Below, piece after piece: positions 33-17,685 of a stretch of DNA of 21,314 nt (its first letter is position 1; the number at the start of each line of letters is the position of its first letter). The DNA is from Oscillibacter ruminantium GH1. GTDB taxonomy: Bacteria; Bacillota; Clostridia; Oscillospirales; Oscillospiraceae. The notes beneath the pieces were generated by a model. That model did not search any database, had not been told where the DNA came from, and was given only the letters and a program-made list of their open reading frames with translations. Both the position numbers and the translations under genes were made by a program. The stretch spans positions 1 to 21,314 of the forward strand of contig NZ_DF158896.1 in NCBI RefSeq assembly GCF_000307265.1. Direction: 5' to 3'.

Positions 33-108
33 TCCTCCTTAGCTCAGTTGGTAGAGCACGCGGCTGTTAACCGCGTTGTCGTTGGTTCGAGTCCAACAGG
101 GGGAGCCA
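33..108 (+). tRNA. tRNA-Asn (anticodon GTT)
   Basis: Cloverleaf read by eye. Acceptor tcctcct/aggggga, D-arm agctcagttggtagagc, anticodon loop CTGTTAA with GTT, T-arm gttgg-TTCGAGT-ccaac, and an encoded CCA at 106-108. Confidence 0.85.
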
Positions 109-118
109 AAAGAGCGTA

Positions 119-152
119 TTGCCGCCACTAGGTGGCGGCAATATTTCTCTTT
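119..152 (+). terminator. Intra-cluster hairpin (ttgccgccac-tag-gtggcggcaa) followed by a T-rich tract; possible attenuator or terminator between tRNA-Asn and tRNA-Met
   Basis: Perfect 10-bp inverted repeat at 119-141 followed by tatttctcttt. Confidence 0.4.
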
Positions 153-162
153 AAGTTGAATC

Positions 163-239
163 GGGCCTTTAGCTCAGTTGGTTAGAGCAGTCGGCTCATA
201 ACCGATCGGTCCCGGGTTCGAGTCCCCGAAGGCCCACCA
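163..239 (+). tRNA. tRNA-Met (anticodon CAT); elongator type, but tRNA-Ile2 (lysidine) cannot be excluded
   Basis: Acceptor gggcctt/aaggccc and anticodon loop CTCATAA. The anticodon stem lacks the G29-G31 triplet of initiator tRNAs. T-loop is TTCGAGT and a CCA is encoded at 237-239. Confidence 0.8.
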
Positions 240-276
240 ATTATGGTTTCGCCTGTTGGGGAGCCACAAGCGAGAT

Positions 277-352
277 AGGGGTATAGCTCAGTTGGTAGAG
301 CAGCGGTCTCCAAAACCGCGTGCCGAGGGTTCAAGTCCTTCTGCCCCTGCCA
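277..352 (+). tRNA. tRNA-Trp (anticodon CCA)
   Basis: Acceptor aggggta/tgcccct, anticodon stem gcggt/accgc with loop CTCCAAA, T-arm gaggg-TTCAAGT-ccttc, and CCA at 350-352. Confidence 0.8.
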
Positions 353-360
353 TAAAAGTC

Positions 361-389
361 TTTACAACGGCTGTTGTATGTGATATAAT
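361..389 (+). promoter_or_regulatory. Internal sigma-70-type promoter within the tRNA cluster (TTTACA-17-TATAAT with an extended -10 TG)
   Basis: tttaca at 361-366, a 17-nt spacer ending in tgtga, and TATAAT at 384-389. It lies just upstream of tRNA-Asp and tRNA-Thr. Confidence 0.45.
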
Positions 390-414
390 TCGTACGTTGT
401 CGAGCCGCAAATAT

Positions 415-491
415 GGCCCGGTAGTTCAGTTGGTTAGAACGCTAGCCTGTCACGCTAGAGGTCGACGGTTCGAGCCCGTTCCGGGTCGCCA
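415..491 (+). tRNA. tRNA-Asp (anticodon GTC)
   Basis: Acceptor ggcccgg/ccgggtc, anticodon stem ctagc/gctag with loop CTGTCAC, T-loop TTCGAGC, and CCA at 489-491. Confidence 0.85.
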
Positions 492-496
492 TAAAT

Positions 497-572
<76 letters not shown>

Positions 573-675: not shown

Positions 676-782
676 GTAAACACAAAACTCAATTGTTTCG
701 AAGAAAGCTCTAAAAGGACCTATACTGGAAACCTTGTATGGCTTTCGCATTTCTATATCCTACATACATTGCGTAATTCATA

Positions 783-1307
783 ATGTGTTTGCTAGAGTGC
801 TTTCAGACTGTGCTCACCGCCCTGCGGGAAAAGCGCAAGCTGCGAGTCGAGTTTGCGGGGCGGCATGGTTGCCTGTGTCGCTGGGTCTGCGTCCCTTACC
901 GGTTAGAGTATTCCGCCAAGGATGATAAGTTCCGCCTGCTCACAGCCGGGGGTGCAAACAGTGTTACCGTCAATTTAGGCCGGATGACCCGCTGCGAACT
1001 GTTGGAGCCCTATTCCCCCAAAGCTTATCATCCGCCGCAGCCCCGCACCGAGACGCTGGTGCTGGAGCTTATCGATGAGCGCAACGCCCTGGAGCGGGTG
1101 ATGCTGCACTTTTCCCATCTGGAAAAGGAGACGGTGCGGCTGGAAAATCGGCGTTATCGTCTCACCCTGCGCTACGACCGGGAGGACCAAACAGAATTGC
1201 TCATCCGGGTACTCTCCTTTGGCCCCATGCTTCGGGTAGTGGCTCCGGACTCCTTTATCGAACAAATCAAATACCGACTGCAAAAACAGACAAGTTGCGG
1301 GCTCTAA
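783..1307 (+). pseudogene. WYL-domain plus C-terminal (WCX-like) regulator fragment. No N-terminal HTH is encoded upstream, so it is likely a 5'-truncated remnant of a WYL transcriptional regulator.
   Basis: The translation contains a WYL-like core (VPYRLEYS...DDKFRLL) and a C-terminal VLSFGPMLRVVAPDSFIEQI motif typical of PafBC/YafY-like proteins. The frame closes at a TAA at 774-776. The 170 bp upstream are AT-rich and non-coding, and there is no visible RBS. Confidence 0.5.
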
Positions 1308-1328
1308 AAGAGCTCGCAACTTTTTTTC
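1293..1328 (+). terminator. Rho-independent terminator after the WYL fragment
   Basis: agttgcgggctc-taaaa-gagctcgcaact (12 bp, one mismatch) followed by ttttttt. Confidence 0.7.
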
Positions 1329-1408
1329 CATGATTTTCTTCTGTGGGGCTGATATGCTGAGAGTGCCTCAAATCCTATGCGGGACATTGAAACCGTCCGC
1401 GGTGCCCA

Positions 1409-1523
1409 CTGCGCTGCAGTACCGGGTATGCCGGAGGAGAGGCAGTGGTAAGCCTTCGGGCGCGGGTTCGACTCCCGATTTTGGCAGCGCCGAAAGGCGT
1501 GGGTTCAAATCCCATTTGCGCAG
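1409..1523 (+). ncRNA. tRNA-like structured element with no anticodon arm (D-loop AGTGGTAA, two T-arm motifs TTCGACT and TTCAAAT, a GAAA-capped hairpin, and an outer stem ctgcgc/gcgcag). Either a Y-RNA-like tRNA mimic or degenerate tRNA 3' halves.
   Basis: Manual folding: ggc-AGTGGTAA-gcc at 1441-1454; cggg-TTCGACT-cccg at 1463-1477; gcgcc-GAAA-ggcgt at 1487-1500; tggg-TTCAAAT-ccca at 1500-1514; acceptor-like gccggag(1430-1436)/ttttggc(1479-1485); outer ctgcgc(1409-1414)/gcgcag(1518-1523). There is no anticodon stem-loop and no CCA. Confidence 0.4.
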
Positions 1524-1772
1524 TAATGCGCCACAGCCTGTTAAGCTGTCTTAAAAACAGAAGTTGTACCCCAATCCCCAGTCCTTTTGCCCATCGCGCG
1601 CTGCATGGGGGATAAGGGCGACGCCACCCGGCTCTGCCGGAATTCGGATACCGGCAACGCCGCGCTCCGGCCAAAGCAAATGCTTCCGCTGCTGCGCCGC
1701 CTGCCTCAAGAATTCCGCCGCCCCGTGGCGTGGGGCGGGTACAGCTTCCATACGAGAAAGGATGGAGACATC

Positions 1773-2879
1773 ATGAAAATAATTATTAATGAAAACGAGA
1801 GAGGCTTCCTCTTCAAAAACGGCAAGTACCTCCGTACTCTGGAGCCCGGAAAGCATGTCCTGCTGGGGCGGGGCTACGACGTGGAGCGGATGCCGGTAGA
1901 CACTTATCCCCTGTGTGTGGTGAACTGCGGTCTGGATACCCTGCTGGCGGACCCGGTACTGGCCAAGCAGCTGACCGTGACGGAGGTAGCCGACGAGACT
2001 CTTGCACTGCACTACATAGACGGGCGCTTTCAGGAGGCCCTCACCAGCGGCCGGTACGCCTTCTGGGCCATCAGCCAGAGCCACGAGTTCCGCACGGTGG
2101 ACATCCGGGAGCCTATGGCTCCTGCCGAGCTGCCCGCCGCCCTGTTTTCCAAAATGCCCGACGCCCTCTATAAGCGGGCGGAGGTACTCTCCTACCAAAA
2201 AGGCCGCCTGAGTGTGGGTGGAAAATTTGTCCGCCTGCTGGAGCCCGGCACCTATTTCTTCTGGAATAACGGCGCCAAGGTGGAAGTATCTCTCGTGGAT
2301 ACCCGCTTGCTGCAAATGAACGTTCAGGGGCAGGAAATGCTGACGCAGGATAAGGTGGCTGTGCGCATCAACTTCGTATGCCGCTATCGTATCGTGGACT
2401 TCGTCAAGGTCATGACTGAGATTGAGGACTACGAGGAGCAGATTCGGGTACTGGCCCAGCTGGCTCTGCGGGAGTATATCGGGCGCAGCCGCCTGGATGA
2501 ACTGCTGGAGAACAAAGAAAGACTGGCTGATTTTGTTCTGGCCCAGCTGAAAACCCGGGAAGAACAGTGCTTCGTCACCTTTTTCGATGCGGGCGTCAAG
2601 GACATGATCCTTCCCGGCGAGGTGCGGGAAATCATGAATACCGTTTTGATTGCTGAAAAGCGGGCTCAGGCCAATGTCATCACCCGCCGCGAAGAAGTAG
2701 CCTCCACCCGCAGCCTCTTGAACACCGCCAAACTCATGGAGGAAAATCCCACGCTGCTGCATCTCAAGGAGATGGAGTGCCTGGAGAAAATCTGCGAGAA
2801 TGTAGGCAACATCACCGTCAGCGGCACCGGCGACCTGCTGGGACAACTGGCGGGCATTATGAAAGGAACTATCACATGA
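1773..2879 (+). CDS. SPFH/band-7 (stomatin/prohibitin/flotillin/HflKC) domain protein. The N-terminal beta region is tandemly duplicated and no transmembrane segment is obvious.
   Basis: ATG 1773 preceded by aggatggag. SPFH-type core (VAVRINFVCRYRIVDF...IRVLAQLALREYIGRSRLDELL...GVKDMILPGEVREIM...AEKRAQANVI). The stop overlaps the rtcB start (ATGA). Confidence 0.75.
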   Translation: MKIIINENERGFLFKNGKYLRTLEPGKHVLLGRGYDVERMPVDTYPLCVVNCGLDTLLADPVLAKQLTVTEVADETLALHYIDGRFQEALTSGRYAFWAISQSHEFRTVDIREPMAPAELPAALFSKMPDALYKRAEVLSYQKGRLSVGGKFVRLLEPGTYFFWNNGAKVEVSLVDTRLLQMNVQGQEMLTQDKVAVRINFVCRYRIVDFVKVMTEIEDYEEQIRVLAQLALREYIGRSRLDELLENKERLADFVLAQLKTREEQCFVTFFDAGVKDMILPGEVREIMNTVLIAEKRAQANVITRREEVASTRSLLNTAKLMEENPTLLHLKEMECLEKICENVGNITVSGTGDLLGQLAGIMKGTIT

Positions 2880-4084
2880 TTACCGTACAGGGCGCTTACA
2901 ACAGCGCCGTTTGCTATACCGACATGCTGGAAAAAGCGGCGGCGGGACAGATCAAGGCCGTCTGCGACCAGAGCGCTTTTGCCGACTGCAAAATTCGCAT
3001 CATGCCGGATGTCCACGCCGGGATGGGCTGCACCATCGGCACTACCATGACCATCACCGACAAGGTGGTGCCCGGCATGGTGGGCGTGGACATCGGCTGC
3101 GGCGTGGAGACGGTGTGTATTGCTGAAAAGGAGCTTAACTTGGCCGCACTGGACGCCCTCATTCGCCGGGAGATTCCCTGTGGGCGGGAGATTCGGGATA
3201 CCGAGCACCAGTTCAACAAGGAAATAGACCTGACTGAGCTGCGCTGTGCAAACCAAGTGAATCTAGTGCGTGCCTGGCGCAGCATCGGCACTCTGGGCGG
3301 TGGTAACCACTTCATTGAGGTGGACCGGGGTGAAGATGGCGCACTCTATGTGGTGATCCACTCCGGCAGCCGCCACATTGGCAAAGAGGTGGCGAAATAC
3401 TATCAGGAGGAGGGCTTTCACGCCCTCTGCGGCAATGCCCGCTTCCAGTTGGACAAGGCCATTGCCCGCATGAAGGCCGAGGGGAACACCAAGGAAATCC
3501 ACAAGACCATCAAGAAGCTGAAATCACAGCGGGCCATGCTTACGCCCATGCCCAAGGATTTGTCCTATGTGGAGGGCAAGTTATTTGAAGACTATATCCA
3601 CGACATGAAGCTGATCCAGCGCTTTGCCGTCCTCAACCGTCAGGCCATGATGGAGGTGCTGCTCACCGGCATGGGGTTCACCGCTGTCGAGCGCTTCACC
3701 ACCATCCACAACTACATTGACACCGAGGAAATGATTCTGCGCAAGGGCGCGGTATCGGCCAAGCAGGGCGAAAAGCTGCTCATCCCCATCAACATGCGGG
3801 ACGGAAGCCTTATCTGTATGGGTAAAGGCAACGAGGACTGGAACTGCTCCGCGCCTCACGGAGCGGGGCGGCTTATGAGCCGCAAGGACGCCTTCGACCG
3901 CCTCTCCATGGAGGAATACAAGGAGCAGATGTCCGACATCTTCTCCACCTGCGTGGTGGCAGACACCTTGGACGAATCTCCCATGGCCTACAAGCCCATG
4001 GACGAAATCGTGGCGCAAATTGCGCCCACGGCGGAGATCGTCGACCGCATTAAGCCAATCTATAATTTTAAATCCACGGAATAA
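2876..4084 (+). CDS. rtcB: RNA-splicing ligase RtcB (3'-phosphate/5'-OH RNA ligase)
   Basis: Hallmark RtcB motifs PDVHAGMG, GGGNHF, HNYID and SAPHGAGR. The product is 402 aa. The start overlaps the SPFH stop by 4 nt. Confidence 0.9.
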   Translation: MITVQGAYNSAVCYTDMLEKAAAGQIKAVCDQSAFADCKIRIMPDVHAGMGCTIGTTMTITDKVVPGMVGVDIGCGVETVCIAEKELNLAALDALIRREIPCGREIRDTEHQFNKEIDLTELRCANQVNLVRAWRSIGTLGGGNHFIEVDRGEDGALYVVIHSGSRHIGKEVAKYYQEEGFHALCGNARFQLDKAIARMKAEGNTKEIHKTIKKLKSQRAMLTPMPKDLSYVEGKLFEDYIHDMKLIQRFAVLNRQAMMEVLLTGMGFTAVERFTTIHNYIDTEEMILRKGAVSAKQGEKLLIPINMRDGSLICMGKGNEDWNCSAPHGAGRLMSRKDAFDRLSMEEYKEQMSDIFSTCVVADTLDESPMAYKPMDEIVAQIAPTAEIVDRIKPIYNFKSTE

Positions 4085-4102
4085 GAAGGGAGGCAAGGCA
4101 AC

Positions 4103-4426
4103 ATGCAAGAACTGATCCAGCAAAAACTGTTGGAAATCGAGCGAACCCAGCAGGTTAAAATCCTATATGCCGCCGAGTCGGGCAGTCGCGCGTGGGGCTT
4201 TGCCTTGTCGGACAGCGACTACGATGTGCGCTTTCTCAACCTGCGCTGGGCGGAGGGCTATCTGAAAATTGACTGCCCACGGGATGTCATCGAATGGCGG
4301 TTGGACGAGTCCACAGAGGACATGGCAGAGGAGCTAGACACCCTGTTTTTTAAACTTCTATCTGCGGAGGGGAAAACAATATGCGGTTGTGGACCATTCA
4401 GCCTGCACACATCTATGAAGCCTTAA
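4103..4426 (+). CDS. Pol-beta-superfamily nucleotidyltransferase N-terminal domain (GS...DSDYD motif; resembles the RNA-repair-associated predicted NTase family). Probably the 5' part of a frameshifted gene.
   Basis: KILYAAESGSRAWGFALSDSDYDVRF matches the minimal NTase signature. A strong RBS agggagg lies 10 nt upstream. The last ~15 codons look unconstrained and overlap the next ORF. Confidence 0.6.
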   Translation: MQELIQQKLLEIERTQQVKILYAAESGSRAWGFALSDSDYDVRFLNLRWAEGYLKIDCPRDVIEWRLDESTEDMAEELDTLFFKLLSAEGKTICGCGPFSLHTSMKP

Positions 4427-4734
4427 AAGGCGGGTATGTCTATCGCTGTGACCCGGAAAAAGCGCAGCTACTTACAGAATCCAGTTTTGGCCCCGCCTAT
4501 GATTGGTTGTCTGAGCAGATGCGCCTGCGCATTGGCGCGCCACCTGACGGGGTCAAATATCCCGTGTGGGCATGGCACACACTGGAGTGGAAGCACAAAC
4601 GCCCGGACCTGAGGCGAGTAGAGTTTTGTACTTATCGTGCACAGCAGGTGTGCATGGAGATAGAAATCCCTGATACGCAAGTGCTTCTGAGCAACGAAGA
4701 TATGGTAAACTTATTTCATATATTTACTGAGTAA
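4381..4734 (+). CDS. Hypothetical protein (MRLWTIQ...). It may be the C-terminal part of the nucleotidyltransferase, reached by a -1 frameshift.
   Basis: Has its own RBS ggagggg, but overlaps the upstream ORF by 46 nt in a different frame. The combined length of about 210 aa would fit a full-length NTase of that family. Confidence 0.45.
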   Translation: MRLWTIQPAHIYEALKGGYVYRCDPEKAQLLTESSFGPAYDWLSEQMRLRIGAPPDGVKYPVWAWHTLEWKHKRPDLRRVEFCTYRAQQVCMEIEIPDTQVLLSNEDMVNLFHIFTE

Positions 4735-4855
4735 AACTATTTTGAAATGACAGTGAAGAAAAAATTGCCCTGAAAGGGTGTATTTATATTTGCTTGATTT
4801 GGATTCGGCGGATAAACATAATGAAAACGTCACTTTGAAAATAAGGGGGAACGAT

Positions 4856-5677
4856 TTGATTACTACAAACGACAAGCAATTCAATATGTTTCCCTCACAT
4901 GTAGGGCTACGAAAATATATTCTATATTACAATATCGTGTTTCCAGAAAATGATACGTTCATGGCACAATATACGCTTATGCCTAACGCTTGCGGAACAT
5001 TGACGCTTGCCTTTGATGGAACCGCTGTCATTGCTGAACTATGGGGAGCATCCCTGACACCTGTTTTGTTAGGGATGGAACCAAACAGTTATCATGTCCT
5101 GCTGCTGATCCAGCTTTCGCCCTATGGTTTGTATCAAATCACACGCCAAAGCCAAGCTGAGTTTGCTGATAAACGCCTTTCGCTTGCGGATATTGACTAT
5201 GAGCTATTTTATTCGCTGCATCAGGCTTTTGTAATGTCTAAAACCGCAACAGATTTGGCAAATGTTTGTGAAGAGGTTTTATACAGGCGTATGGAAAAGC
5301 ACGTTATTTCCGACGCTTTATTATTAGCGTCTACCGTGATTTCTGATAGCCATGGACAAGTACAAGTGAAAGAAGTCGCCCGGCAATCGGGTTACAGTGA
5401 GCGACAATTAAATCGCTTGTTTCTTGCCCAAATTGGAATGAATATTAAGGATTTTGCACGCCTAACCCGCTTTAACTATGTCTTAAAGCACATTCAAACA
5501 TCGCCTTGCTTCTTTGCGGCATTGTCGCAACAAGCCGGATATTTTGACCAAGCCCATTTTGATAAAGATTTCAAGGCTATAAGCGGTGTTTCACCTCAAG
5601 CCTATCTGAAAACAATGTCTGATTTTTACTATGACGGAACAGAGATATACGATACAATATCCTCAAAGGGGGATTGA
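4856..5677 (+). CDS. AraC-family transcriptional regulator (N-terminal ligand-binding domain plus C-terminal dual HTH)
   Basis: C-terminal AraC HTH signature (SGYSERQLNRLF...YFDQAHFDKDFKAISGVSPQAYLK). TTG 4856 sits 6 nt after the RBS aaggggg. The alternative starts are ATG 4778 and ATG 4886. Confidence 0.75.
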   Translation: MITTNDKQFNMFPSHVGLRKYILYYNIVFPENDTFMAQYTLMPNACGTLTLAFDGTAVIAELWGASLTPVLLGMEPNSYHVLLLIQLSPYGLYQITRQSQAEFADKRLSLADIDYELFYSLHQAFVMSKTATDLANVCEEVLYRRMEKHVISDALLLASTVISDSHGQVQVKEVARQSGYSERQLNRLFLAQIGMNIKDFARLTRFNYVLKHIQTSPCFFAALSQQAGYFDQAHFDKDFKAISGVSPQAYLKTMSDFYYDGTEIYDTISSKGD

Positions 5678-5680
5678 AAA

Positions 5681-6400
5681 ATGAAATATCAAGGTTGTCT
5701 TTTAGCGGTTAAAGATATATCCGCTTCTAAGCATTTTTATGAAAATGTGATTCATCAGAATGCGGTCATGGATATTGGCGTGCATGTAACCTTTGAGGGT
5801 TTTTCTCTGCAACAAGGATATGCCGAACTCGTCGGTGTGTCAGTCGATAGCGTGAAAGAGCAGTCACATAACTTTCAAGTCTATTTTGAAGTAGACGATT
5901 TGGATAAGGTGTATATTGAAATGAAAAGCATATCCGGCTTACAATGGGTGCATGAAATAAAGGAATACCCGTGGGGGCAGCGTGACATTCGAGTATATGA
6001 CCCCGATAAGCATATTGTAGAGATTGCAGAGGATATGAATACGGTAATCAAACGCTTTTTGAATCAGGGCATGTCGAAAGAAGAAGTTGCTAAGCGCACA
6101 ATGTTTCCCCTTGAAGTCGTAAACCAGTATGCGTTAGGCTTTGGTGAAGCAAAGCCGCTATTTTATTCCAAACAAGATCGGAGGAGACGGGCAATGAGTA
6201 AATATGATCCGCTTTGGAAGGCGATAGGTCAACACACGGAAAACAGCTTCACGCTGACCTATGCCGAGATTGAACAGATTCTGGACTTTCCTATCGACCA
6301 CGCCTTTTTAACCTTCAAGAAGGAACTGCCCGCCTACGGCTACGAGGTGGGTAAGATCTCCATGAAGGCACAGACGGTGACGTTCAAACGCTGCGTTTGA
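5681..6400 (+). CDS. VOC (glyoxalase/bleomycin-resistance fold) family protein carrying a ~65-aa C-terminal extension. The extension has its own internal SD-ATG.
   Basis: N-terminal ~125 aa have a VOC-like pattern (LAVKDISASKHFYENV...YFEVDDLD...DPDKHIVEI). There is an in-frame ggaggag-N7-ATG at 6181-6197 with no intervening stop. Confidence 0.55.
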   Translation: MKYQGCLLAVKDISASKHFYENVIHQNAVMDIGVHVTFEGFSLQQGYAELVGVSVDSVKEQSHNFQVYFEVDDLDKVYIEMKSISGLQWVHEIKEYPWGQRDIRVYDPDKHIVEIAEDMNTVIKRFLNQGMSKEEVAKRTMFPLEVVNQYALGFGEAKPLFYSKQDRRRRAMSKYDPLWKAIGQHTENSFTLTYAEIEQILDFPIDHAFLTFKKELPAYGYEVGKISMKAQTVTFKRCV

Positions 6401-6455
6401 CAAGCGGTTGCGTTTCTGCCATCATCGGCTTCACCCATCCAAGAGGAGGAACACT

Positions 6456-7178
6456 ATGAACTGGGAGCCATGGACAGGCTGTTACAAAATAAGTGATGGC
6501 TGTACAAATTGCTATTTTTATGGACCGTATGCAAAACGCTATGGTCAAAGCACAATACAAAAAACAGATAAATTTGATTGGCCTGTAAGGCAAAATGCAA
6601 AGGGCGAATACAACATTAAAGGAAACAAAATTCTTGCAACCTGCTTTGCGACTGACTTTTTCCTACCCGAAGCGGATGAGTGGCGTAAAGAAGTTTGGGC
6701 AATCATCAAAGAAAGAACAGATATTGATTTTTTGATTTTGACAAAGCGAATTGACCGCTTCCCCCAATCGCTTCCGTCTGATTGGGGGTCAGGCTATGAC
6801 AATGTGAATATTGGCTGTACTGTCGAAAATCAAGAATTAGCCGATTACAGACTCCCACTCTTTTTATCCTATCCGATTAAGCGGCGTTTTATTGCTTGCT
6901 CCCCACTTTTAGAAGCGATTGATTTAACACCCTATCTTCATGGAGTAGACCATGTTACTGTTGGCGGCGAAACAGGACGAGAAGCCCGTATGTGCGATTA
7001 TGATTGGGTACTTAATATCCGTGAACAATGCGTAAAAGCAGATGTAACCTTTTGGTTCAAGAATACAGGCTCACTTTTCAAACGTGACGGTGTAGTGGAA
7101 AAAATAAATCCATTTAAGCAAAACAGTGTGGCAAAAGAGCTCGATATTGATATTTCAGATGGGAAAAGATTGTTCTGA
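6456..7178 (+). CDS. DUF5131 / phage Gp37-Gp68 family protein
   Basis: N-terminal WxPWTGCxKISDGCxNCY motif, then FLILTKR...GCTVENQ...RFIACSPLLE...VGGETG...FWFKNTG, typical of this family. The RBS agaggagga lies 6 nt upstream. Confidence 0.7.
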   Translation: MNWEPWTGCYKISDGCTNCYFYGPYAKRYGQSTIQKTDKFDWPVRQNAKGEYNIKGNKILATCFATDFFLPEADEWRKEVWAIIKERTDIDFLILTKRIDRFPQSLPSDWGSGYDNVNIGCTVENQELADYRLPLFLSYPIKRRFIACSPLLEAIDLTPYLHGVDHVTVGGETGREARMCDYDWVLNIREQCVKADVTFWFKNTGSLFKRDGVVEKINPFKQNSVAKELDIDISDGKRLF

Positions 7179-8192: not shown

Positions 8193-8507
8193 TTGGAGCT
8201 TACTCCGGAGAAGAACGCTAATGTATTTAAGGCATTTTGCGATGAAAAGCGGCTTGCCATTTTGGAACTGCTGCGCAGCGGTGAAAAATGCGCCTGCGTG
8301 CTCATTGATCAAATGGAAATCGGTCAGTCCTCCTTGTCCTATCACATGAAGATTTTATGTGAATCGGGTATTGTCGAAAGCAGACAGGAAGGCAAATGGA
8401 CACATTATAAAATCAGTGAACAGGGCAGCCACGAGGCCATGCTCCTGTTAAAAGCAATTACCACCCCCAATGCAACCGCTGAAGATACTCGTTGTTGCAA
8501 TCAATAA
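8193..8507 (+). CDS. arsR: ArsR/SmtB-family metalloregulator (arsenical resistance operon repressor)
   Basis: TTG start after the RBS gaggtga. The HTH carries a CxC metalloid-binding motif (EKCACVLIDQ) similar to ArsR ELCVCDL. Confidence 0.8.
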   Translation: MELTPEKNANVFKAFCDEKRLAILELLRSGEKCACVLIDQMEIGQSSLSYHMKILCESGIVESRQEGKWTHYKISEQGSHEAMLLLKAITTPNATAEDTRCCNQ

Positions 8508-8600
8508 CGGCCATCTGATGGAAGATGGCTTTTATTCGGCACAACATATCAAGTTTTTTTGATATGACTATTGAATTTAAGAAAGAGAGGCGCTTACCCT

Positions 8601-9614
8601 ATGGAGATCCTTCAAAATACGTGGCTGTTCTTTCAAGACCAAGTGCTTGGAATGAAATGGCTCAACGCCCTAATCGGTAATCTGCTCTCGTTGTTCGGTC
8701 TTGATGTAACAGGACGAATTGGTGGCAGCGTTCAATTCTTTATCTATGATGTACTAAAAATCACCGTACTGCTCTGCGTGCTGATTTTCATCATCTCGTA
8801 CATTCAAAGCTACTTCCCGCCGGAACGAAGCAAGAAAATTATGAGCCGCTTTCACGGCGTGTGGGCAAATATCATGGCAGCACTGCTTGGCACGGTAACG
8901 CCTTTTTGCTCTTGCTCCTCCATACCTCTGTTCATTGGATTTACCAGTGCCGGACTGCCCCTTGGCGTGACTTTTTCCTTTCTGATTTCCTCACCCATGG
9001 TAGACCTCGGGTCGCTCGTTCTGCTCATGAGCATCTTTGGCACAAAGGTCGCTATCGTCTATGTCGTTGTGGGCCTGGTTATCGCGGTCGTTGGCGGTAC
9101 GCTGATTGAAAAACTTCACATGGAAAACTATGTGGAAGAATTCATTCGCTCGGCAAGCGGCGTAGATATTGAATCGCCTGACTTAACCCGCAAAGAGCGT
9201 GTCATTTACGCCAAGGATCAGGTGGTGTCAACCTTCAAAAAAGTTCTGCCGTACATTCTGGTTGGCGTGGGCATCGGAGCTATCATCCACAACTGGATTC
9301 CTGAAAGCTGGATTGAGATGGTGCTTGGCAGCAATAATCCTTTTGGGGTAGTGCTGGCAACTCTGCTTGGCGTTCCCATGTACGCTGACATTTTCGGCAC
9401 GATTCCGGTGGCCGAAGCGCTGCTCTACAAAGGCGCGCAGCTTGGTACGGTTCTCTCCTTTATGATGGCAGTCACAACGCTTTCCCTGCCCTCCATCATC
9501 ATGCTGCGCAAGGCGGTAAAGCCGAAGCTGTTGGGCACATTTATTGCCATCTGCACCATCGGCATTATCATTGTTGGCTATCTGTTTAATATTTTCCAGT
9601 ATCTACTGGTTTAA
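8601..9614 (+). CDS. arsP: ArsP-type permease (DUF318/PF03773 family; conserved TPFCSCS motif)
   Basis: Polytopic membrane protein with GTVTPFCSCSSIP. ATG 8601 is preferred over the track's TTG at 8571, which has no RBS. Confidence 0.7.
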   Translation: MEILQNTWLFFQDQVLGMKWLNALIGNLLSLFGLDVTGRIGGSVQFFIYDVLKITVLLCVLIFIISYIQSYFPPERSKKIMSRFHGVWANIMAALLGTVTPFCSCSSIPLFIGFTSAGLPLGVTFSFLISSPMVDLGSLVLLMSIFGTKVAIVYVVVGLVIAVVGGTLIEKLHMENYVEEFIRSASGVDIESPDLTRKERVIYAKDQVVSTFKKVLPYILVGVGIGAIIHNWIPESWIEMVLGSNNPFGVVLATLLGVPMYADIFGTIPVAEALLYKGAQLGTVLSFMMAVTTLSLPSIIMLRKAVKPKLLGTFIAICTIGIIIVGYLFNIFQYLLV

Positions 9615-9629
9615 TGGGAGGGAAAGAGA

Positions 9630-10403
9630 ATGGCTAAAAACTGGTATCCAGTCATCGATTATCTTGCTTGCACTGAATGCGGAACCTGCGTGGATTTTTG
9701 CTCCCACAGTGTTTATAACAAAGCAAAAGCCCCGTCCCCTGTGGTGATGCAACCCGGAAACTGCATTGACCGTTGCCACGGCTGCGGCAACAAGTGTCCG
9801 GCAGGCGCCATCTCCTATGTAGGCGACGATACTGGCTGGACACCGCCAAACGGCGAATGCAGTGCAAAAAAAAGCGTAGATTGCTGCCGCGGCGGGGCTT
9901 GTGAGGAGGATTCCTCCAAGGCTGTGCTTGTGGAATATCTCTATCTTGATCTCAATACCTGTGACCGCTGTATCGGCGCCGATGCGGTACTGGAAGAAGT
10001 TTTGGGCAGTATCGCGCCCGCTCTGGAGACTGCCGGATATACCATGCGGCTTCAAAAGGTACAGATCGCCACAAAAGAACTGGCGGAGCACTACCGATTC
10101 CTTGCGTCGCCCACCATTCGTGTAAATGGGCAGGATATCTGCGGACCTGTTGCGGAAAACACCTGCGGCTGCTGTGGTGAAATCAGCGGAACCGATGTGA
10201 CCTGTCGTACCTTTGCATACAAAGGTCAAGCCTATGAAGTACCGCCCAAAGCCATGCTGGCCGAAGGAATTCTAAGAGCTGTGCTCGGCATGGTGCAGCC
10301 CGTTTGTGACTGCGGCGAGTATTCACTTCCAGAAAATCTCAAAAACTTCTTTGAGGGAAAAGCTGTGAAGACCGGTTGCTGCCCTGAAGGTACTTGCGGA
10401 TGA
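9630..10403 (+). CDS. 4Fe-4S ferredoxin domain fused to a Cys-rich thioredoxin-like DUF2703-type domain
   Basis: N-terminal CTECGTCVDFC...CIDRCHGCGNKCP ferredoxin motifs. The C-terminal domain carries several CxxC/CC pairs (CDRC, CGCCGE, CDCGE, CCPEGTCG). The RBS is gggaggg. Confidence 0.6.
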   Translation: MAKNWYPVIDYLACTECGTCVDFCSHSVYNKAKAPSPVVMQPGNCIDRCHGCGNKCPAGAISYVGDDTGWTPPNGECSAKKSVDCCRGGACEEDSSKAVLVEYLYLDLNTCDRCIGADAVLEEVLGSIAPALETAGYTMRLQKVQIATKELAEHYRFLASPTIRVNGQDICGPVAENTCGCCGEISGTDVTCRTFAYKGQAYEVPPKAMLAEGILRAVLGMVQPVCDCGEYSLPENLKNFFEGKAVKTGCCPEGTCG

Positions 10404-10453
10404 GTAAACAAAGGATATAAAAACAGTTATTCCACTTTTGATTTTCGCCGTCA

Positions 10454-10705
10454 TTGCCGAGATTGACCTTTACGGTTTTGGGTATCCTTGCGGCCACGGC
10501 GGGCAGCCTTGTATGGAGTGTTTTGCTACTGCTGCTCTATTTCATTGGGCACGGCATTCTCGCCGTGATTGCGGAGCCTTCCATGGGCTTTGCCCAAAAG
10601 CTCTCCCAAAGCGAGAAGTATGGAAAAGCCAGCGCTATTTTGAAAATCGTCATGGGCGCGGTGATCCTGCTCATCGGTTTCTATTTGTTATATTCAGGTT
10701 TCTAA
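10454..10705 (+). pseudogene. CcdA/DsbD-family thiol-disulfide transporter fragment (two C-terminal TM helices only); likely a truncated gene
   Basis: Only 83 aa with 2 TM helices resembling the C-terminal third of CcdA. TTG start with no RBS. An in-frame TGA at 10439 excludes an upstream extension. Confidence 0.4.
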
Positions 10706-10730
10706 TCATGAATTTAAGGAGGTTTTTATT

Positions 10731-11102
10731 ATGGCATTGTTTGGTTTTGGTAAAAAGAAAAATGCAGAGGAAGAATTGGTGCAGTGTGGTTGCGGGGAAA
10801 TGTGCAAGCCCTCCGAAATTGCCGCAAAGAAAGCTGACGAAGAAGCAAAAGTGAGCGGTTCATCCGTCAAGGTGCTTGGCTCGGGCTGTGCAAAGTGCAA
10901 TCAACTGGAAGCGGCTACCTTGGAAGCGCTCAAAGAGCTTGGCATGGATGCCACCATTGACCATGTGACAGACTTTACACAGATCGCTGCTTACGGTGTG
11001 ATGACAACTCCTGCATTGGTTGTGGACGGCAAGGTCGTTTCCTTTGGAAAGGTTTTAAAAAAGGACGAGGTCGTTAAAATCCTGCAAAAAGTACGGGGGT
11101 AA
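10731..11102 (+). CDS. Thioredoxin-family small redox protein (redox-active disulfide protein 2-like, CAKC active site)
   Basis: GSGCAKCNQLEAA thioredoxin-fold CxxC motif and ~120-aa size. Strong RBS aggagg. This type of protein is typical of ars loci. Confidence 0.7.
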   Translation: MALFGFGKKKNAEEELVQCGCGEMCKPSEIAAKKADEEAKVSGSSVKVLGSGCAKCNQLEAATLEALKELGMDATIDHVTDFTQIAAYGVMTTPALVVDGKVVSFGKVLKKDEVVKILQKVRG

Positions 11103-11106
11103 ATTT

Positions 11107-12153
11107 ATGGCAAAGGAAAAATCACAAAGCATTGGCTTCTTTCAAAAATACCTGACCGTGTGGGTTGCTCTCTGTATGACGGCAGGTGTTTTAATTGGTA
11201 AACTTTTACCTGCCGTTCCTGCATTTTTAGGCCGTTTTGAGTATGCCAGAGTTTCTATTCCGGTCGCCATCCTCATTTGGGTGATGATTTATCCCATGAT
11301 GATGAAGGTGAATTTCCAGAGCGTCAAAAATGTGGGGAAAAACCCAAAGGGGTTATTCGTCACATGGGTGACAAACTGGCTCATCAAGCCGTTCACCATG
11401 TACGGTATCGCCGCGCTATTTTTCTATGTGGTTTTTAAGGGCTTGATTGCCCCTGACCTCGCCAAGGAGTATCTGGCGGGTGCAGTACTCTTGGGTGCGG
11501 CACCCTGCACAGCGATGGTGTTCGTCTGGAGCACGCTCACCAAAGGAAACCCTGCCTACACCGTAGTACAGGTAGCAACCAACGATTTGATTATTCTGGT
11601 TGCCTTTGTGCCGATTGTGAAATTCCTACTGGGCGTTTCCAACGTGTCCGTGCCATGGGACACGCTGATTTTATCGGTCATTTTATTTGTAGTCATTCCG
11701 CTTGCGGGCGGTATTCTGACCCGTGTGCTGGTGACAAATCGCAAGGGCACAGAGTATTTTGAAAACACCTTTGTCCATAAATTTGATAATGCCACCAGCA
11801 TTGGTCTGCTGCTCACTTTGGTATTGCTGTTTTCCTTCCAAGGTGATGTGATTTTGAATAATCCGCTGCACATTCTACTCATTGCTGTGCCGCTTGTTTT
11901 GCAAACTTTCCTTATTTTCTTCATCGCTTATTTTGCTTGCAAATGGCTGAAGCTGCCCCATGATATTGCCGCCCCTGCGGGGATGATTGGCGCGTCCAAC
12001 TTCTTTGAACTGTCGGTCGCTGTGGCGATTGCATTGTTTGGTACTACTTCACCGGCGGCTCTTGCCACCGTAGTTGGCGTGCTGACCGAGGTGCCGGTGA
12101 TGCTGTTGCTTGTAAAAATCGCCAACAAAACGAAAGGATGGTTTCCAGTATGA
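11107..12153 (+). CDS. acr3: ACR3-family arsenite efflux transporter
   Basis: 10-TM protein. The N-terminal part (FQKYLTVWVALCMTAGVLIGK...IPVAILIWVMIYPMM...) is characteristic of ACR3/ArsB-type arsenite efflux transporters. Confidence 0.8.
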   Translation: MAKEKSQSIGFFQKYLTVWVALCMTAGVLIGKLLPAVPAFLGRFEYARVSIPVAILIWVMIYPMMMKVNFQSVKNVGKNPKGLFVTWVTNWLIKPFTMYGIAALFFYVVFKGLIAPDLAKEYLAGAVLLGAAPCTAMVFVWSTLTKGNPAYTVVQVATNDLIILVAFVPIVKFLLGVSNVSVPWDTLILSVILFVVIPLAGGILTRVLVTNRKGTEYFENTFVHKFDNATSIGLLLTLVLLFSFQGDVILNNPLHILLIAVPLVLQTFLIFFIAYFACKWLKLPHDIAAPAGMIGASNFFELSVAVAIALFGTTSPAALATVVGVLTEVPVMLLLVKIANKTKGWFPV

Positions 12154-12557
12154 GCAAACCTAAAGTAGCATTTATCTGCGTACACAACTCCTGCCGCAGC
12201 CAAATTGCCGAAGCACTGGGCAAGTACCTTGCGTCTGATGTCTTTGAAAGCTATTCTGCCGGAACGGAAGTAAAGCCGCAAATCAATCAGGATGCTGTGC
12301 GGCTGATGAAGCAGATTTATGGCATCGACATGGAGCGAACTCAGCGCAGTAAGCTGCTGGAGGAGATTCCCCCAGTGGATATCGTGGTGACCATGGGCTG
12401 CAATGTGCAGTGTCCTTTTTTGCCCTGTATGCACAGGGAGGATTGGGGGTTAGATGACCCAACCGGCAAAAGCGATGTGGACTTTGAACGTACTATAAAA
12501 GCAATCCGCTCTAAAATTGAGAATTTGAGAGAGCGAATCGCTGACAACAAACTATAA
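12150..12557 (+). CDS. arsC: Arsenate reductase ArsC, thioredoxin-coupled LMW-PTPase type
   Basis: CVHNSCRS P-loop (CX5R) near the N-terminus with downstream Cys residues. ATG 12150 overlaps the acr3 stop (ATGA); the track's ATG 12138 is the alternative start. Confidence 0.8.
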   Translation: MSKPKVAFICVHNSCRSQIAEALGKYLASDVFESYSAGTEVKPQINQDAVRLMKQIYGIDMERTQRSKLLEEIPPVDIVVTMGCNVQCPFLPCMHREDWGLDDPTGKSDVDFERTIKAIRSKIENLRERIADNKL

Positions 12558-13099: not shown

Positions 13100-13939
13100 T
13101 TAGTTTTCCTCCATTTTTTCTAAGATTTTTGCAACCGGCTCAAACCAATTGCCATCGAAAAGCTCTATCATACCCTTGTCACATGCAGCCGAAATTTTTG
13201 GGTCGATAGGTAACTTAGCAAGAACCTTTAAATTATGTTTTTCGGCAATTTCTTCAATATGACTTTCGCCAAATATCTGATAGTCCTTTCCACTATCAGG
13301 GCATTTAAAGTAGGACATGTTTTCCACCAGGCCGATAATGGGAATATTCATCATCTCTGCCATCTTGACAGCCTTTGATACAATCATGGATACAAGCTCC
13401 TGTGGGGACGTCACAACGATAATTCCGTCAACAGCAATAGACTGAAATACCGTAAGAGGAACATCGCCGGTGCCCGGTGGCATATCAATGAACATAAAAT
13501 CTACATCGCTCCAAATAACATCTGTCCAAAACTGTTTTACTGTGCCGGCAATAATCGGCCCTCTCCAGACAACCGGATCAGTATCGTTTTCTAAAAGCAA
13601 ATTAACAGACATGATATCAATCCCGGTCTTCGTTTTAACAGGGAATAAGCCGAACTCACTGCCTTTAGCTTTTTCTTTGATTCCAAATGCCTTAGGAATA
13701 GAAGGTCCGGTAACATCCGCATCTAGAATAGCGGTATGATAGCCCATTCTATTCATTGTAACTGCAAGCATTGAGGTAACAAGTGATTTTCCGACACCGC
13801 CTTTGCCGCTGACAACACCAATAACCTTTTTTACACTGCTCATCTCATGCAGCTTCTCGGAGAAATCTGTTTTTTGTTCTTTTCTTTCTGCGCAGTCCTC
13901 CGAACAACTGCTACAGCTTTGATTGCAATTTTCGCTCAT
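13100..13939 (-). CDS. Mrp/NBP35 (ApbC-like) P-loop ATPase with an N-terminal Cys-rich segment (CNQSCSSCSEDC)
   Basis: Walker A GKGGVGKS, plus ...CPDSGK... and the Mrp signature. RBS aaggag. Confidence 0.8.
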   Translation of the reverse strand: MSENCNQSCSSCSEDCAERKEQKTDFSEKLHEMSSVKKVIGVVSGKGGVGKSLVTSMLAVTMNRMGYHTAILDADVTGPSIPKAFGIKEKAKGSEFGLFPVKTKTGIDIMSVNLLLENDTDPVVWRGPIIAGTVKQFWTDVIWSDVDFMFIDMPPGTGDVPLTVFQSIAVDGIIVVTSPQELVSMIVSKAVKMAEMMNIPIIGLVENMSYFKCPDSGKDYQIFGESHIEEIAEKHNLKVLAKLPIDPKISAACDKGMIELFDGNWFEPVAKILEKMEEN

Positions 13940-13956
13940 AATCTTGCTCCTTTTAT

Positions 13957-16493: not shown

Positions 16494-16494
16494 A

Positions 16495-16863: not shown

Positions 16864-17248
16864 AAGAATCCTCCGTTCTATTTTTGTTTAAATAATTCTC
16901 AATTGCGTTGCGTAGCGCACTCACACCTAAATTTGAGCAATGAACCTTATTTTCAGGAAGTCCATCTAAAGCCTGGATAATGTCTTCTTCCGTAATATTC
17001 AATGCTTCCTCTAAGGTTTTACCCTTTGCTAATACCGATGTCATACTGGATGTTGCAATTGAAGCACAACAGCCAAACACAAGATAGCTGATTTCATCTA
17101 CACGATTATCTTTTACCTTTAAATAAACGGTCAAATAATCTCCGCAGGAAGGATCCCCGTAGTCTCCCTCGGCATCTGCATCGGGCATACTATGAGTATT
17201 TTGCGGACACATAAAATGCTCAATTACTTTTTCTGAATATATAATCAA
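16838..17248 (-). CDS. NifU/IscU-like Fe-S cluster assembly scaffold (N-terminal domain type)
   Basis: Conserved Cys triad context (PSCGDY...VFGCCAS...HCS). Confidence 0.65.
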
Positions 17249-17622: not shown

Positions 17623-17685
17623 AATTCATCACCTCCATCCTAATCAGAAATAACCAGAGCGTCCTCCGGTTATCCCTGATGCCCG

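What the first reader, a model, noticed from the sequence alone, without database searches (positions are those of the whole stretch)
1773..4734. Translationally coupled SPFH(band-7)-RtcB pair with a downstream Pol-beta nucleotidyltransferase: a non-canonical RNA-repair module
The SPFH stop and the rtcB start overlap (ATGA at 2876-2879), implying co-translation and functional linkage. There is no RtcA, archease or RtcR. Instead the locus carries a soluble SPFH protein with a duplicated N-terminal beta region, and an NTase with the GS/DxD signature 19 nt after rtcB. SPFH scaffolds are not part of characterised RtcB pathways. The NTase resembles a family that comparative genomics has linked to RNA-repair loci; this is my recollection and needs HMM confirmation. 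Together with the upstream tRNA-like RNA and the WYL remnant, this looks like an RNA-damage response or conflict system.
Basis: partly seen in the sequence, partly recalled or inferred. Interest (0 to 1): 0.6.

Follow-up and report, generated by a model that had tools for sequence, protein, structure and literature searches.

The report
Decayed SPFH–RNA–RtcB RNA-repair operon
This is a partly eroded copy of an RNA-repair operon type already predicted from comparative genomics in 2016 (a soluble SPFH/Band-7 scaffold protein, a tRNA-like RNA and the RNA ligase RtcB); its most interesting piece is the roughly 370-base structured RNA just upstream, which is under very strong constraint and is absent from Rfam.

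Summary
A 368-aa SPFH gene (1773-2879) and an intact rtcB (2876-4084) overlap in ATGA. The window has no RtcA, RtcR or archease.

The "downstream NTase" is not a working gene. Only the first 70 codons are RlaP (PF10127, positions 1-71 of 249). The rest of the claimed span is an unrelated, truncated DUF3841 gene in another frame.

The pairing is conserved: rtcB follows the SPFH gene in 38 of 73 species loci, and in 23 of 27 close ones. It is not new. Burroughs & Aravind (2016), as quoted by Wang et al. 2018, described RtcB next to a Band-7 protein and a "band-7-associated tRNA"; RlaP was named in the same study.

Intact relatives read: two WYL regulators, terminator, promoter, about 370-nt RNA, SPFH, RtcB, RlaP. 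This window lost the regulators through a clean 2,883-bp deletion. The RlaP truncation is older.

The most constant partner of the SPFH gene is the RNA (62 of 80 loci). It has one or two tRNA-type T-arms and strongly covarying 5' and 3' domains, has no Rfam match, and is 99.4% identical in a relative whose synonymous divergence is 10-17%.

The SPFH protein has no membrane anchor and starts with tandem beta-modules. How the system works has never been tested experimentally.

The parts
783..1307 (+). Chimeric remnant ORF (174 aa): the C-terminal WYL/WCX part of the second WYL-type regulator. Its start codon comes from the left flank of a deletion.
   Evidence: Pfam WCX 1.5e-4 and WYL 0.034, both below threshold. 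Homology to the 312-aa regulator of L081 starts at about residue 134, window ~801. The junction at 793 corresponds to a 2,883-bp deletion relative to L087. PADLOC WYL models hit the intact homologues at 5e-9.
1292..1322 (+). Intrinsic terminator of the regulator genes. It is conserved across the family.
   Evidence: 14-bp stem followed by a T-run. The block AGTTCGCAGCTTTTTTTCC is conserved in the family alignment.
1350..1358 (+). Extended -10 promoter box (TGATATGCT; family consensus TGGTAnAAT) that drives the RNA-SPFH-rtcB transcript.
   Evidence: Conserved columns 2-10 of alignment A4. Promoter function is inferred; it was not picked up by the strict two-hexamer scan.
1365..1724 (+). Conserved structured non-coding RNA of about 360-370 nt (5' end approximate), the band-7-associated tRNA-like RNA.
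   Evidence: Iterative nhmmer aligns the whole interval in more than 60 loci. No Rfam match at gathering threshold or at E<=10. 462 of 465 nt are identical to L092, where flanking-gene dS is 0.10-0.17. ORFs inside the interval are not conserved.
1379..1432 (+). RNA 5' domain: hairpin P2 (1379-1400) and nested stem P3/P3a (1401-1432), closed by the invariant GGUG...GUAUGCC.
   Evidence: 89.6% of cells paired. 65 cells show a change on both sides, against 17.9 +/- 4 in shuffles (0 of 500 reach it). Slid controls give a covariation score of 0.09 or less, against 0.306.
1462..1478 (+). tRNA-type T-arm A (GCGGG-TTCGACT-CCCGA). This optional second T-arm is present in 11 of 45 relatives.
   Evidence: Motif scan and alignment.
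1499..1531 (+). Universal T-arm B (GTGGG-TTCAAAT-CCCAT, 1499-1515) followed by the hairpin GCGC-AGTAAT-GCGC (1518-1531).
   Evidence: A T-arm is present in 44 of 45 RNAs. The T-stem pairs are among the top covarying column pairs. The following hairpin varies in sequence but keeps its pairing (by eye).
1629..1724 (+). RNA 3' domain: a long irregular stem-loop (four stacked helices) with invariant internal loops GGAUACCG / CUnAA and GCCAAA / UUCCGC.
   Evidence: 84.1% of cells paired. 341 cells show a change on both sides, against 112 +/- 9 in shuffles (0 of 500). Slid controls give 0.12-0.18 against 0.707. RNAalifold finds the same fold independently. The covariance model hits the window at 74.5 bits, E 1.2e-14.
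1773..2879 (+). Soluble SPFH/Band-7 ('slipin') protein, 368 aa: two extra beta-modules (1-66, 67-132), the SPFH domain (133-280), a long helix (282-343) and a C-terminal tail.
2876..4084 (+). RtcB 3'-phosphate RNA ligase, 402 aa, intact, translationally coupled to the SPFH gene.
   Evidence: PF01139 4.8e-61. Aligns to P. horikoshii RtcB with the metal ligands and the guanylylated histidine conserved (D72, C75, H145, H162, H328; the HN motif H278 was identified by eye). dN/dS 0.09-0.21.
4103..4426 (+). RlaP nucleotidyltransferase pseudogene. Only 4103-4312 (70 codons, including the GS and DxD motifs) is RlaP; the ORF then reads into foreign sequence.
   Evidence: PF10127 positions 1-71 of 249. 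tblastn with the 252-aa RlaP of L081 ends at residue 70. The same junction is present in L092.
4381..4734 (+). Truncated DUF3841 gene (117 of about 190 aa), unrelated to the repair module. Homology to relatives ends at 4704, where G+C also drops.
   Evidence: PF12952 positions 1-98 of 178. Full-length homologues are 186-205 aa and sit in integrase, AbiE or Wadjet islands without RtcB. Breakpoint; composition.

Best explanation
The locus belongs to the SPFH(Band-7) / tRNA-like RNA / RtcB RNA-repair operon family.

In intact relatives, two tandem WYL-domain regulators are followed by a terminator. A sigma-70-type promoter then transcribes one unit: a structured RNA of about 370 nt carrying one or two tRNA-like T-arms, then a soluble SPFH protein, then RtcB, and sometimes RlaP (shown by comparison).

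The proposed mechanism is inferred, not shown. The SPFH protein has the long C-terminal helix that lets all solved SPFH proteins build large rings or cages. It would oligomerise in the cytoplasm and bind the co-transcribed tRNA-like RNA. The resulting ribonucleoprotein would act as a scaffold or decoy that brings nuclease-cut tRNA or rRNA ends (2',3'-cyclic phosphate and 5'-OH) to the co-translated RtcB for sealing. RlaP, where present, would first rebuild 3' ends that have lost nucleotides. The WYL pair would switch the operon on in response to damage.

In this window the core (promoter, RNA, SPFH, RtcB) is intact and under purifying selection. The regulators were removed by a 2.9-kb deletion and RlaP is a stump. 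Expression is therefore probably no longer damage-regulated, and repair is limited to direct ligation.
For: Identity of the parts.

Conserved order:
- WYL-WYL, a gap of about 480 nt, SPFH, RtcB and RlaP in L081, with the same ATGA overlap.
- rtcB lies downstream in 38 of 73 loci, and in 23 of 27 loci whose SPFH is at least 55% identical. WYL genes lie upstream in 51 of 70 loci.

RNA:
- Covariation supports both domains.
- The covariance model hits exactly once per locus, always just upstream of the SPFH gene, in 62 of 80 species loci. There are no other hits in 914 kb.
- T-arms are present in 44 of 45 RNAs.
- There is no terminator between the RNA and the SPFH gene.
- The RNA region is 99.4% identical in a relative where dS is 0.10-0.17.

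Other repair enzymes join the same SPFH gene elsewhere: RlaP plus a CCA-adding enzyme in L001, and RlaP plus a zeta-toxin-type kinase in E. coli.

Selection: dN/dS is 0.06-0.21 for SPFH and RtcB.

Literature: RtcB + Band-7 + b7a-tRNA (10.1101/312249); RlaP adds 1-2 NMP to damaged RNA 3' ends (PMC12776372).

Deletion and truncations.
Against: - No experiment exists for any SPFH-RNA or SPFH-RtcB contact. No multimer prediction could be run.
- About 40% of SPFH+RNA loci have no ligase next door, so RtcB is an accessory rather than an obligatory partner.
- The RNA sits as a 5' leader, so it could act in cis instead.
- ARAGORN and the Rfam tRNA model do not recognise the RNA as a tRNA. I could not read Burroughs & Aravind 2016 to check that their b7a-tRNA is this RNA.
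- A P. aeruginosa mutant lacking the rtc-locus SPFH gene showed no phenotype in general assays (PMC13086221).
- In this window the loss of the regulators may have silenced the operon.
Confidence: 0.6

Rival explanations
1. The conserved RNA is a cis-acting leader, such as a riboswitch or a tRNA- or damage-sensing element. It would control translation or transcription of SPFH-rtcB and would not be a partner of the SPFH protein.
For: It lies in the 5' UTR with no terminator before the SPFH gene. The 3' domain ends only about 50 nt before the start codon. It is co-oriented in every locus.
Against: No terminator/antiterminator pair and no sequestered ribosome-binding site is evident. The T-arms mimic tRNA rather than bind it. 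In seven or eight loci an extra gene lies between the RNA and the SPFH gene. The nearest known analogue, Y RNA in the rsr-yrlBA-rtcBA operon, is also co-transcribed yet acts as an RNP component. T-box and other Rfam leader models do not match.
Confidence: 0.2
2. The window's module is a dead relic: a fragment left by two deletions, no longer expressed or useful.
For: Both flanks are broken specifically in this window (at 793 and 4704). The regulators are gone, and RlaP and DUF3841 are stumps. G+C drops from about 0.57 to 0.42 at the right edge.
Against: The promoter box, RNA, SPFH and RtcB have no frameshifts or stop codons, and the catalytic residues are intact. The RNA differs at only 3 of 465 positions from L092, and dN/dS is 0.06-0.09. 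The deletion may, however, be too recent for decay to show.
Confidence: 0.12
3. The SPFH protein is an ordinary membrane-microdomain or protease-modulating slipin, and its adjacency to rtcB has no mechanistic meaning.
For: NCBI names the family 'slipin family protein'. There are weak HflK/HflC matches.
Against: It has no TM segment or hydrophobic hairpin, and the window has no NfeD or FtsH partner. The HflK/C scores are far below cut-off (58.9 against 159 bits). Linkage to RtcB, RlaP, a CCA-adding enzyme and the RNA recurs across phyla.
Confidence: 0.04

Closest known systems
Band-7/SPFH + b7a-tRNA + RtcB RNA-repair systems predicted by Burroughs & Aravind (NAR 2016; known to me through 10.1101/312249 and PMC6514570)
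   Same: An SPFH protein sits next to RtcB with an adjacent tRNA-like non-coding RNA. RlaP is an accessory NTase. Distribution across lineages is patchy.
   Different: I could not read the paper, so identity of the RNA with their b7a-tRNA is unverified. Here the RNA is about 370 nt with separate 5' and 3' domains, not a simple cloverleaf. This copy lacks a working RlaP and its WYL regulators.
rsr-yrlBA-rtcBA operon of Salmonella (Ro60 + Y RNAs with a tRNA-like domain + RtcB/RtcA, controlled by RtcR)
   Same: A tRNA-mimicking RNA is co-transcribed with RtcB and a ring- or cage-forming scaffold protein. The proposed logic is an RNP cofactor for ligation.
   Different: The scaffold is SPFH, not Ro/TROVE. 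There is no RtcA. The regulators are a WYL pair rather than the sigma-54 activator RtcR. The RNA does not match Rfam Y RNA models.
P. aeruginosa rtc locus with PaFlo8 (SPFH) and RlaP (PMC13086221; PMC12776372)
   Same: SPFH and RlaP genes are embedded with rtcB.
   Different: That locus keeps RtcR and RtcA. Whether PaFlo8 has the N-terminal modules or an upstream RNA was not tested here.
Stomatin / HflK-HflC / prohibitin / flotillin SPFH cages
   Different: There is no membrane anchor and no NfeD or FtsH partner. Two to six extra N-terminal beta-modules are present. The genomic partners are RNA enzymes and an RNA.
Major vault protein (eukaryotic vault RNP)

Membership tests
SPFH/Band-7-RtcB RNA-repair system (Burroughs & Aravind 2016) | Band-7/SPFH-domain protein | tested here: met
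SPFH/Band-7-RtcB RNA-repair system (Burroughs & Aravind 2016) | RtcB ligase gene adjacent and co-oriented, with the adjacency conserved | tested here: met
   ATGA overlap. rtcB lies downstream in 38 of 73 loci and in 23 of 27 close relatives.
SPFH/Band-7-RtcB RNA-repair system (Burroughs & Aravind 2016) | Band-7-associated tRNA-like non-coding RNA beside the SPFH gene | tested here: inconclusive
   A conserved, covarying RNA with tRNA T-arms is present. It is not called a tRNA by ARAGORN or Rfam. The published b7a-tRNA definition could not be read.
SPFH/Band-7-RtcB RNA-repair system (Burroughs & Aravind 2016) | Accessory RlaP nucleotidyltransferase (optional component) | tested here: not met
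   Only 70 of about 252 codons remain. Full-length RlaP is present in L081, L001, L029, L042, L061 and L079.
Canonical Rtc system (RtcR-RtcA-RtcB) | RtcA cyclase and the sigma-54 activator RtcR (CARF domain) next to rtcB | tested here: not met
   No such Pfam hit among the window ORFs scanned. Relatives carry WYL regulators instead.
Ro60/Y-RNA-RtcB system | TROVE/Ro60 protein and a Y RNA | tested here: not met
   No TROVE hit. No Y RNA or YrlA match at E<=10.
RtcB ligase family (PF01139) | Metal-binding Asp/Cys/His residues and the guanylylated His | tested here: met
   D72, C75, H145, H162 and H328 align with D95, C98, H203, H234 and H404 of P. horikoshii RtcB. H278 lies in the HN motif (by eye).
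RlaP (PF10127) | Complete Pol-beta NTase core plus the C-terminal RNA-binding part (about 249 profile positions) | tested here: not met
   Profile positions 1-71 only. The GS and DxD motifs are present but the remaining 180 residues are missing.
Transfer RNA (RF00005) | Full cloverleaf recognised by tRNA models | tested here: not met
   No ARAGORN or Rfam tRNA call at 1308-1772. ARAGORN of 80 relatives, with poor acceptor stems.
Membrane SPFH scaffolds (stomatin, HflK/C, prohibitin) | N-terminal membrane anchor, and an NfeD or protease partner | tested here: not met
   Kyte-Doolittle maximum 1.34. HflK/C NCBIfam scores are far below cut-off. The window has no NfeD or FtsH.
Major vault protein-like shell | MVP-type repeat domains preceding the shoulder domain and cap helix | tested here: inconclusive
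Catalogued anti-phage defence systems (PADLOC 2.0) | Match to a defence-system protein model | tested here: not met
   Only the WYL regulators of relatives match (5e-9). SPFH, RtcB, RlaP and DUF3841 give no hit.

The most novel reading that the evidence does not exclude
The real core of this system is not SPFH-RtcB but a cytoplasmic ribonucleoprotein. It would be built from a soluble SPFH protein whose wall is lengthened by 2, 4 or 6 tandem beta-modules and closed by a cap-type helix, together with a tRNA-mimicking RNA of about 370 nt that has not been catalogued. That would make it a bacterial counterpart of the vault or Ro-Y RNA particles, one that docks interchangeable RNA-repair enzymes (RtcB, RlaP, CCA-adding enzyme, kinase). 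About a quarter of complete E. coli genomes carry an SPFH-RlaP version, which would make it directly testable.
Probability: 0.2. Interest if true: 0.8.

Novelty: new member of a known kind. Interest (0 to 1): 0.4.

Why it matters
What bacterial RtcB acts on, and which cofactors it uses, is still largely open. The SPFH + RNA + RtcB systems have been predicted since 2016 but never tested.

This analysis gives usable anatomy for such tests:
- the boundaries and covariation-supported domains of the RNA, which has no Rfam family;
- evidence that the RNA and the SPFH protein are the constant pair, while the ligase and NTase are exchangeable;
- a soluble SPFH architecture with a variable number of repeats;
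- a natural allele with the regulators deleted;
- a related SPFH-RlaP locus in many E. coli strains that could serve as an experimental model.

For annotation, it also shows that gene callers extend the SPFH ORF by 62 codons over the RNA, and that the apparent NTase is a fusion of two pseudogene fragments.

Tried and rejected
- Burroughs & Aravind 2016 could not be read by DOI or PMC id. I therefore rely on citing papers and on my memory of its abstract.
- Rfam found nothing for the RNA, whether at gathering threshold on the window and seven loci or in permissive mode on 1250-1850.
- ARAGORN does not call the RNA. Its three calls in relatives rest on a true T-arm but have poor acceptor stems.
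- Single-sequence folding was uninformative (z-scores -2.6 and -1.8) and disagrees with the comparative structure.
- A long-range helix between the conserved UUGCAAGG and GCCUUGCC blocks was considered and dropped. It contains recurrent A-C mismatches, and no long-range covarying pairs exist.
- An acceptor-like pairing GCGGUGC/GUAUCGC holds only in one subgroup, so I rejected it.
- DUF3841 as a module component is rejected. It is absent from all 80 loci and occurs in unrelated islands.
- The E. coli intergenic region looked similar by eye, but it does not match the 3'-domain covariance model. Only the T-arm resemblance stands.
- No phage record encodes the SPFH protein.
Full report
**What is in the window**

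Five tRNA genes (33-572) and two terminators are followed by the features below.
- A 174-aa ORF (783-1307) gives weak WYL/WCX matches.
- A strong terminator lies at 1292-1322.
- A 465-nt non-coding interval follows.
- The SPFH/Band-7 gene is at 1773-2879.
- rtcB is at 2876-4084 and overlaps the SPFH gene in ATGA.
- After 18 nt comes a 107-aa ORF at 4103-4426 that matches only the first 71 of 249 positions of RlaP.
- A 117-aa ORF at 4381-4734, in another frame, matches the first 98 of 178 positions of DUF3841.

G+C falls from about 0.57 to 0.42 near 4700. The rest of the window encodes an AraC regulator, a glyoxalase, DUF5131, an arsenic-resistance cluster, Fe-S/NifU-type genes, a GGDEF protein and a Sel1 protein. 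It contains no RtcA, RtcR, archease or Ro.

The "NTase" spanning to 4734 is not one gene; it is two truncated genes.

**Is the SPFH-rtcB pairing conserved?**

The SPFH protein belongs to a very large family. A search returned 7,087 hits at E<1e-5 (among the 8,000 candidates scored), and most of the 120 listed are 365-368 aa. I fetched 80 loci, one per species, from Clostridia, Erysipelotrichaceae, Paenibacillus, Fretibacterium and a Leptospiraceae MAG.
- Of 73 loci with enough downstream sequence, 38 have rtcB directly downstream on the same strand, and 5 more have it upstream.
- Among loci whose SPFH is at least 55% identical to the window's, 23 of 27 have rtcB downstream.
- WYL genes lie upstream in 51 of 70 loci.
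- The 4-nt overlap is specific to this clade (window, L081, L082, L087-L089, L092). Other relatives have spacers of 4-100 nt or more.
- Where rtcB is absent, housekeeping genes such as prfB or a PPIase follow the SPFH gene.

RtcB is nevertheless an accessory of the SPFH gene, not an obligatory partner.

**The intact module, and what this window lost**

L081 (SPFH 82% identical) shows the full layout. It has a 414-aa and a 312-aa protein, a 478-nt gap, SPFH, RtcB with the same overlap, an 18-nt spacer and a 252-aa RlaP (PF10127, 1.3e-87). The two upstream proteins are divergent WYL-domain proteins. They fall below Pfam thresholds but score 5e-9 against PADLOC WYL models.

Two closer relatives fix the history.
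- L087 (SPFH 96% identical) and L092 (99% identical) both keep the WYL pair.
- Window 793-4094 equals L087 3052-6353 at 95.9% identity. Window 679-793 equals L087 54-168 at 100% identity.
- The window therefore carries a clean 2,883-bp deletion. It removed a YoaP-type acetyltransferase gene, the first WYL gene and about 131 codons of the second.
- The ORF at 783-1307 is the resulting chimera.
- Window 793-4704 equals L092 1894-5812 at 96.4% identity. The RlaP stump fused to the DUF3841 upstream region is thus an older event shared with L092. The breaks at 793 and 4704 are specific to this window.
- RlaP is also truncated independently in L082 and is absent in L088.
- DUF3841 never occurs in the 80 loci. 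Elsewhere it sits in integrase, AbiE or Wadjet islands, so it is unrelated cargo.

**The upstream RNA**

The interval between the WYL terminator and the SPFH gene is conserved at the DNA level over about 420 nt in more than 60 loci, including loci without rtcB. It opens with a conserved extended -10 box (TGGTAnAAT; TGATATGCT at window 1350-1358).

Comparative analysis resolves four parts.
1. The 5' domain (window 1379-1432) is a hairpin plus a nested stem closed by the invariant GGUG...GUAUGCC. 89.6% of cells are paired. 65 cells show a change on both sides, against 17.9 +/- 4 in shuffles (0 of 500 reach it). Slid controls are far lower.
2. A variable centre holds a canonical tRNA T-arm (5-bp stem and a UUCGAAU-type loop) in 44 of 45 RNAs, and two T-arms in 11 of 45. 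The window has two, at 1462-1478 and 1499-1515. The T-stem covaries.
3. A hairpin directly follows the T-arm.
4. The 3' domain (1629-1724) is a long irregular stem with invariant internal loops GGAUACCG/CUnAA and GCCAAA/UUCCGC. 84% of cells are paired. 341 cells show a change on both sides, against 112 +/- 9 in shuffles (0 of 500). The covariation score is 0.707, against 0.12-0.18 for slid controls. RNAalifold finds the same fold independently.

A covariance model of the 3' domain hits once per locus, always just upstream of the SPFH gene on the same strand. It hits 62 of the 80 species loci plus the window and the close relatives, with no other hit in 914 kb. No long-range helices covary. The length from the -10 box to the end of the 3' domain has a median of 397 nt.

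No Rfam family matches. ARAGORN calls nothing in the window and only 3 of 80 relatives, with weak acceptor stems. No terminator separates the RNA from the SPFH gene, so they are co-transcribed.

Between the window and L092 the 465-nt interval differs at 3 positions. Synonymous divergence of the flanking genes is 0.10-0.17 and their dN/dS is 0.06-0.09. The non-coding region is therefore the most constrained part of the locus.

Gene callers annotate a 430-aa SPFH starting at TTG 1587, which overlaps this RNA. Homologue lengths show that ATG 1773 is the true start.

**The proteins**

SPFH:
- AF2 gives a confident model (pLDDT 83 for the full length and 92 for the N-terminus).
- It has three tandem five-stranded beta-modules (1-66, 67-132, 133-200), mutually related at hhalign probabilities of 96-99%. 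The third is the start of the SPFH domain proper.
- These are followed by the SPFH alpha/beta core and a long helix at 282-343.
- Some family members carry four (496 aa) or six (637 aa) extra modules.

RtcB keeps the metal ligands and the guanylylated histidine. It is a divergent subfamily, falling below all NCBIfam equivalog cut-offs.

**Comparison with what is known**

[quoted passage not shown] They present this as a functional parallel to Ro60/YrlA.

The same 2016 study named RlaP, according to PMC12776372 and PMC6514570. From my own memory, its abstract lists SPFH/Band-7 modules with a novel tRNA-like molecule as putative scaffolding cofactors.

RlaP has since been shown to add one or two NMPs to damaged RNA 3' ends (PMC12776372). 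An SPFH gene (PaFlo8) inside the P. aeruginosa rtc locus is noted in PMC13086221, and its deletion gave no phenotype in general assays.

The system is therefore a known, computationally predicted kind, and this window adds a decayed member. Three points appear not to be catalogued: the extended multi-domain architecture of the RNA, which has no Rfam family; the variable number of beta-modules in the SPFH protein; and the finding that the RNA, SPFH and the WYL pair recur without any ligase.

**A related locus in E. coli**

Proteobacteria encode full-length homologues at 34-37% identity. In 1,425 of 5,426 complete E. coli genomes, the yjbD-lysC interval holds the following, in order:
- a 529-nt intergenic region with a T-arm (ATGGGTTCGATTCCCACA) followed by a hairpin;
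- a 375-aa SPFH protein;
- RlaP (1.4e-96);
- a convergent zeta-toxin-family kinase.

The Firmicute 3'-domain model does not match that intergenic region, so RNA homology is unproven there.

**Mechanism and confidence**

Shown:
- gene content and order;
- co-transcription architecture;
- RNA structure and constraint;
- protein folds;
- intact catalytic residues;
- the deletions.

Inferred:
- the SPFH protein oligomerises in the cytoplasm;
- it binds the tRNA-like RNA;
- it presents cut tRNA or rRNA to RtcB;
- the WYL pair senses damage.

The main rival is that the RNA acts in cis as a leader. For this window in particular, loss of the regulators means either constitutive or silent expression, and repair without RlaP.

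**Verdict**

This is a new, eroded member of a known predicted system. Interest is moderate, carried mainly by the uncharacterised RNA-SPFH particle.

Noticed in passing
window 33-572: An array of five tRNA genes (Asn-GTT, Met-CAT, Trp-CCA, Asp-GTC, Thr-GGT) is followed by two terminators (571-612, 643-664). The eroded repair module begins about 200 nt downstream. This looks like a rearrangement-prone spot next to a tRNA cluster.
   Followed up: partly
window 679-801 versus L087 54-168 and 3052: A clean 2,883-bp deletion with 0-1 nt of microhomology removed a YoaP-type acetyltransferase gene and the WYL regulator pair. It created the chimeric ORF at 783-1307. The left flank is 100% identical to L087, while the module itself is only 95.9% identical, which hints at a recombination mosaic.
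   Followed up: yes
window 1587-1772: Automatic gene callers extend the SPFH ORF to a TTG at 1587 (430 aa; database entries P0001 and P0002). That extension runs over the conserved 3' domain of the RNA, so it is an annotation artefact.
   Followed up: yes
P0022/P0024 (496 aa), P0013/P0014 (637 aa), P0012, P0021: Some SPFH family members carry four or six N-terminal beta-modules instead of two, as tandem R1-R2 pairs. The 'wall' in front of the SPFH domain therefore varies in length.
   Followed up: partly
L091 (E. coli WAT, NZ_CP012380.1) 2501-5916: About 26% of complete E. coli genomes carry SPFH (375 aa), RlaP and a convergent zeta-toxin-family kinase between yjbD and lysC. A tRNA T-arm motif sits in the 529-nt region upstream. 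No rtcB is adjacent. This could serve as a model system.
   Followed up: partly
L001 3830-5936: In one MAG, RlaP and a full CCA-adding enzyme (PolyA_pol, tRNA_NucTran2_2 and HD domains) lie between the SPFH gene and rtcB. This fits repair of tRNA 3' ends.
   Followed up: no
L011 5360-5977, and L008, L009, L012, L021, L041, L043: A conserved gene of about 205-250 aa with no Pfam match is inserted between the RNA and the SPFH gene in seven or eight loci. Its function is unknown.
   Followed up: no
L061 and L079 (Paenibacillus): Distant SPFH loci place RlaP directly after the SPFH gene, followed by a divergent RtcB and a Uma2-family endonuclease (L061), or by an M48 peptidase and a protein kinase (L079). 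The 3'-domain RNA model does not detect an RNA in these loci.
   Followed up: no
window 8193-12557: An arsenic-resistance cluster: ArsR, an ArsP-type permease, a Fer4/DUF2703 protein, an ACR3/SBF transporter and an LMW-phosphatase-type ArsC.
   Followed up: no
window 13100-18000 (minus strand): An operon of Fe-S and nitrogenase-cofactor-like genes: a Mrp/ParA-type NTPase, a metallo-beta-lactamase-fold protein, two CbiA-Fer4 proteins, a Nitro_FeMo-Co domain protein, NifU_N, DUF134 and DUF5320.
   Followed up: no
window 6408-7178: A DUF5131 protein (phage Gp37/Gp68-like family) lies in the low-G+C stretch right of the module, beside AraC-type and glyoxalase genes.
   Followed up: no
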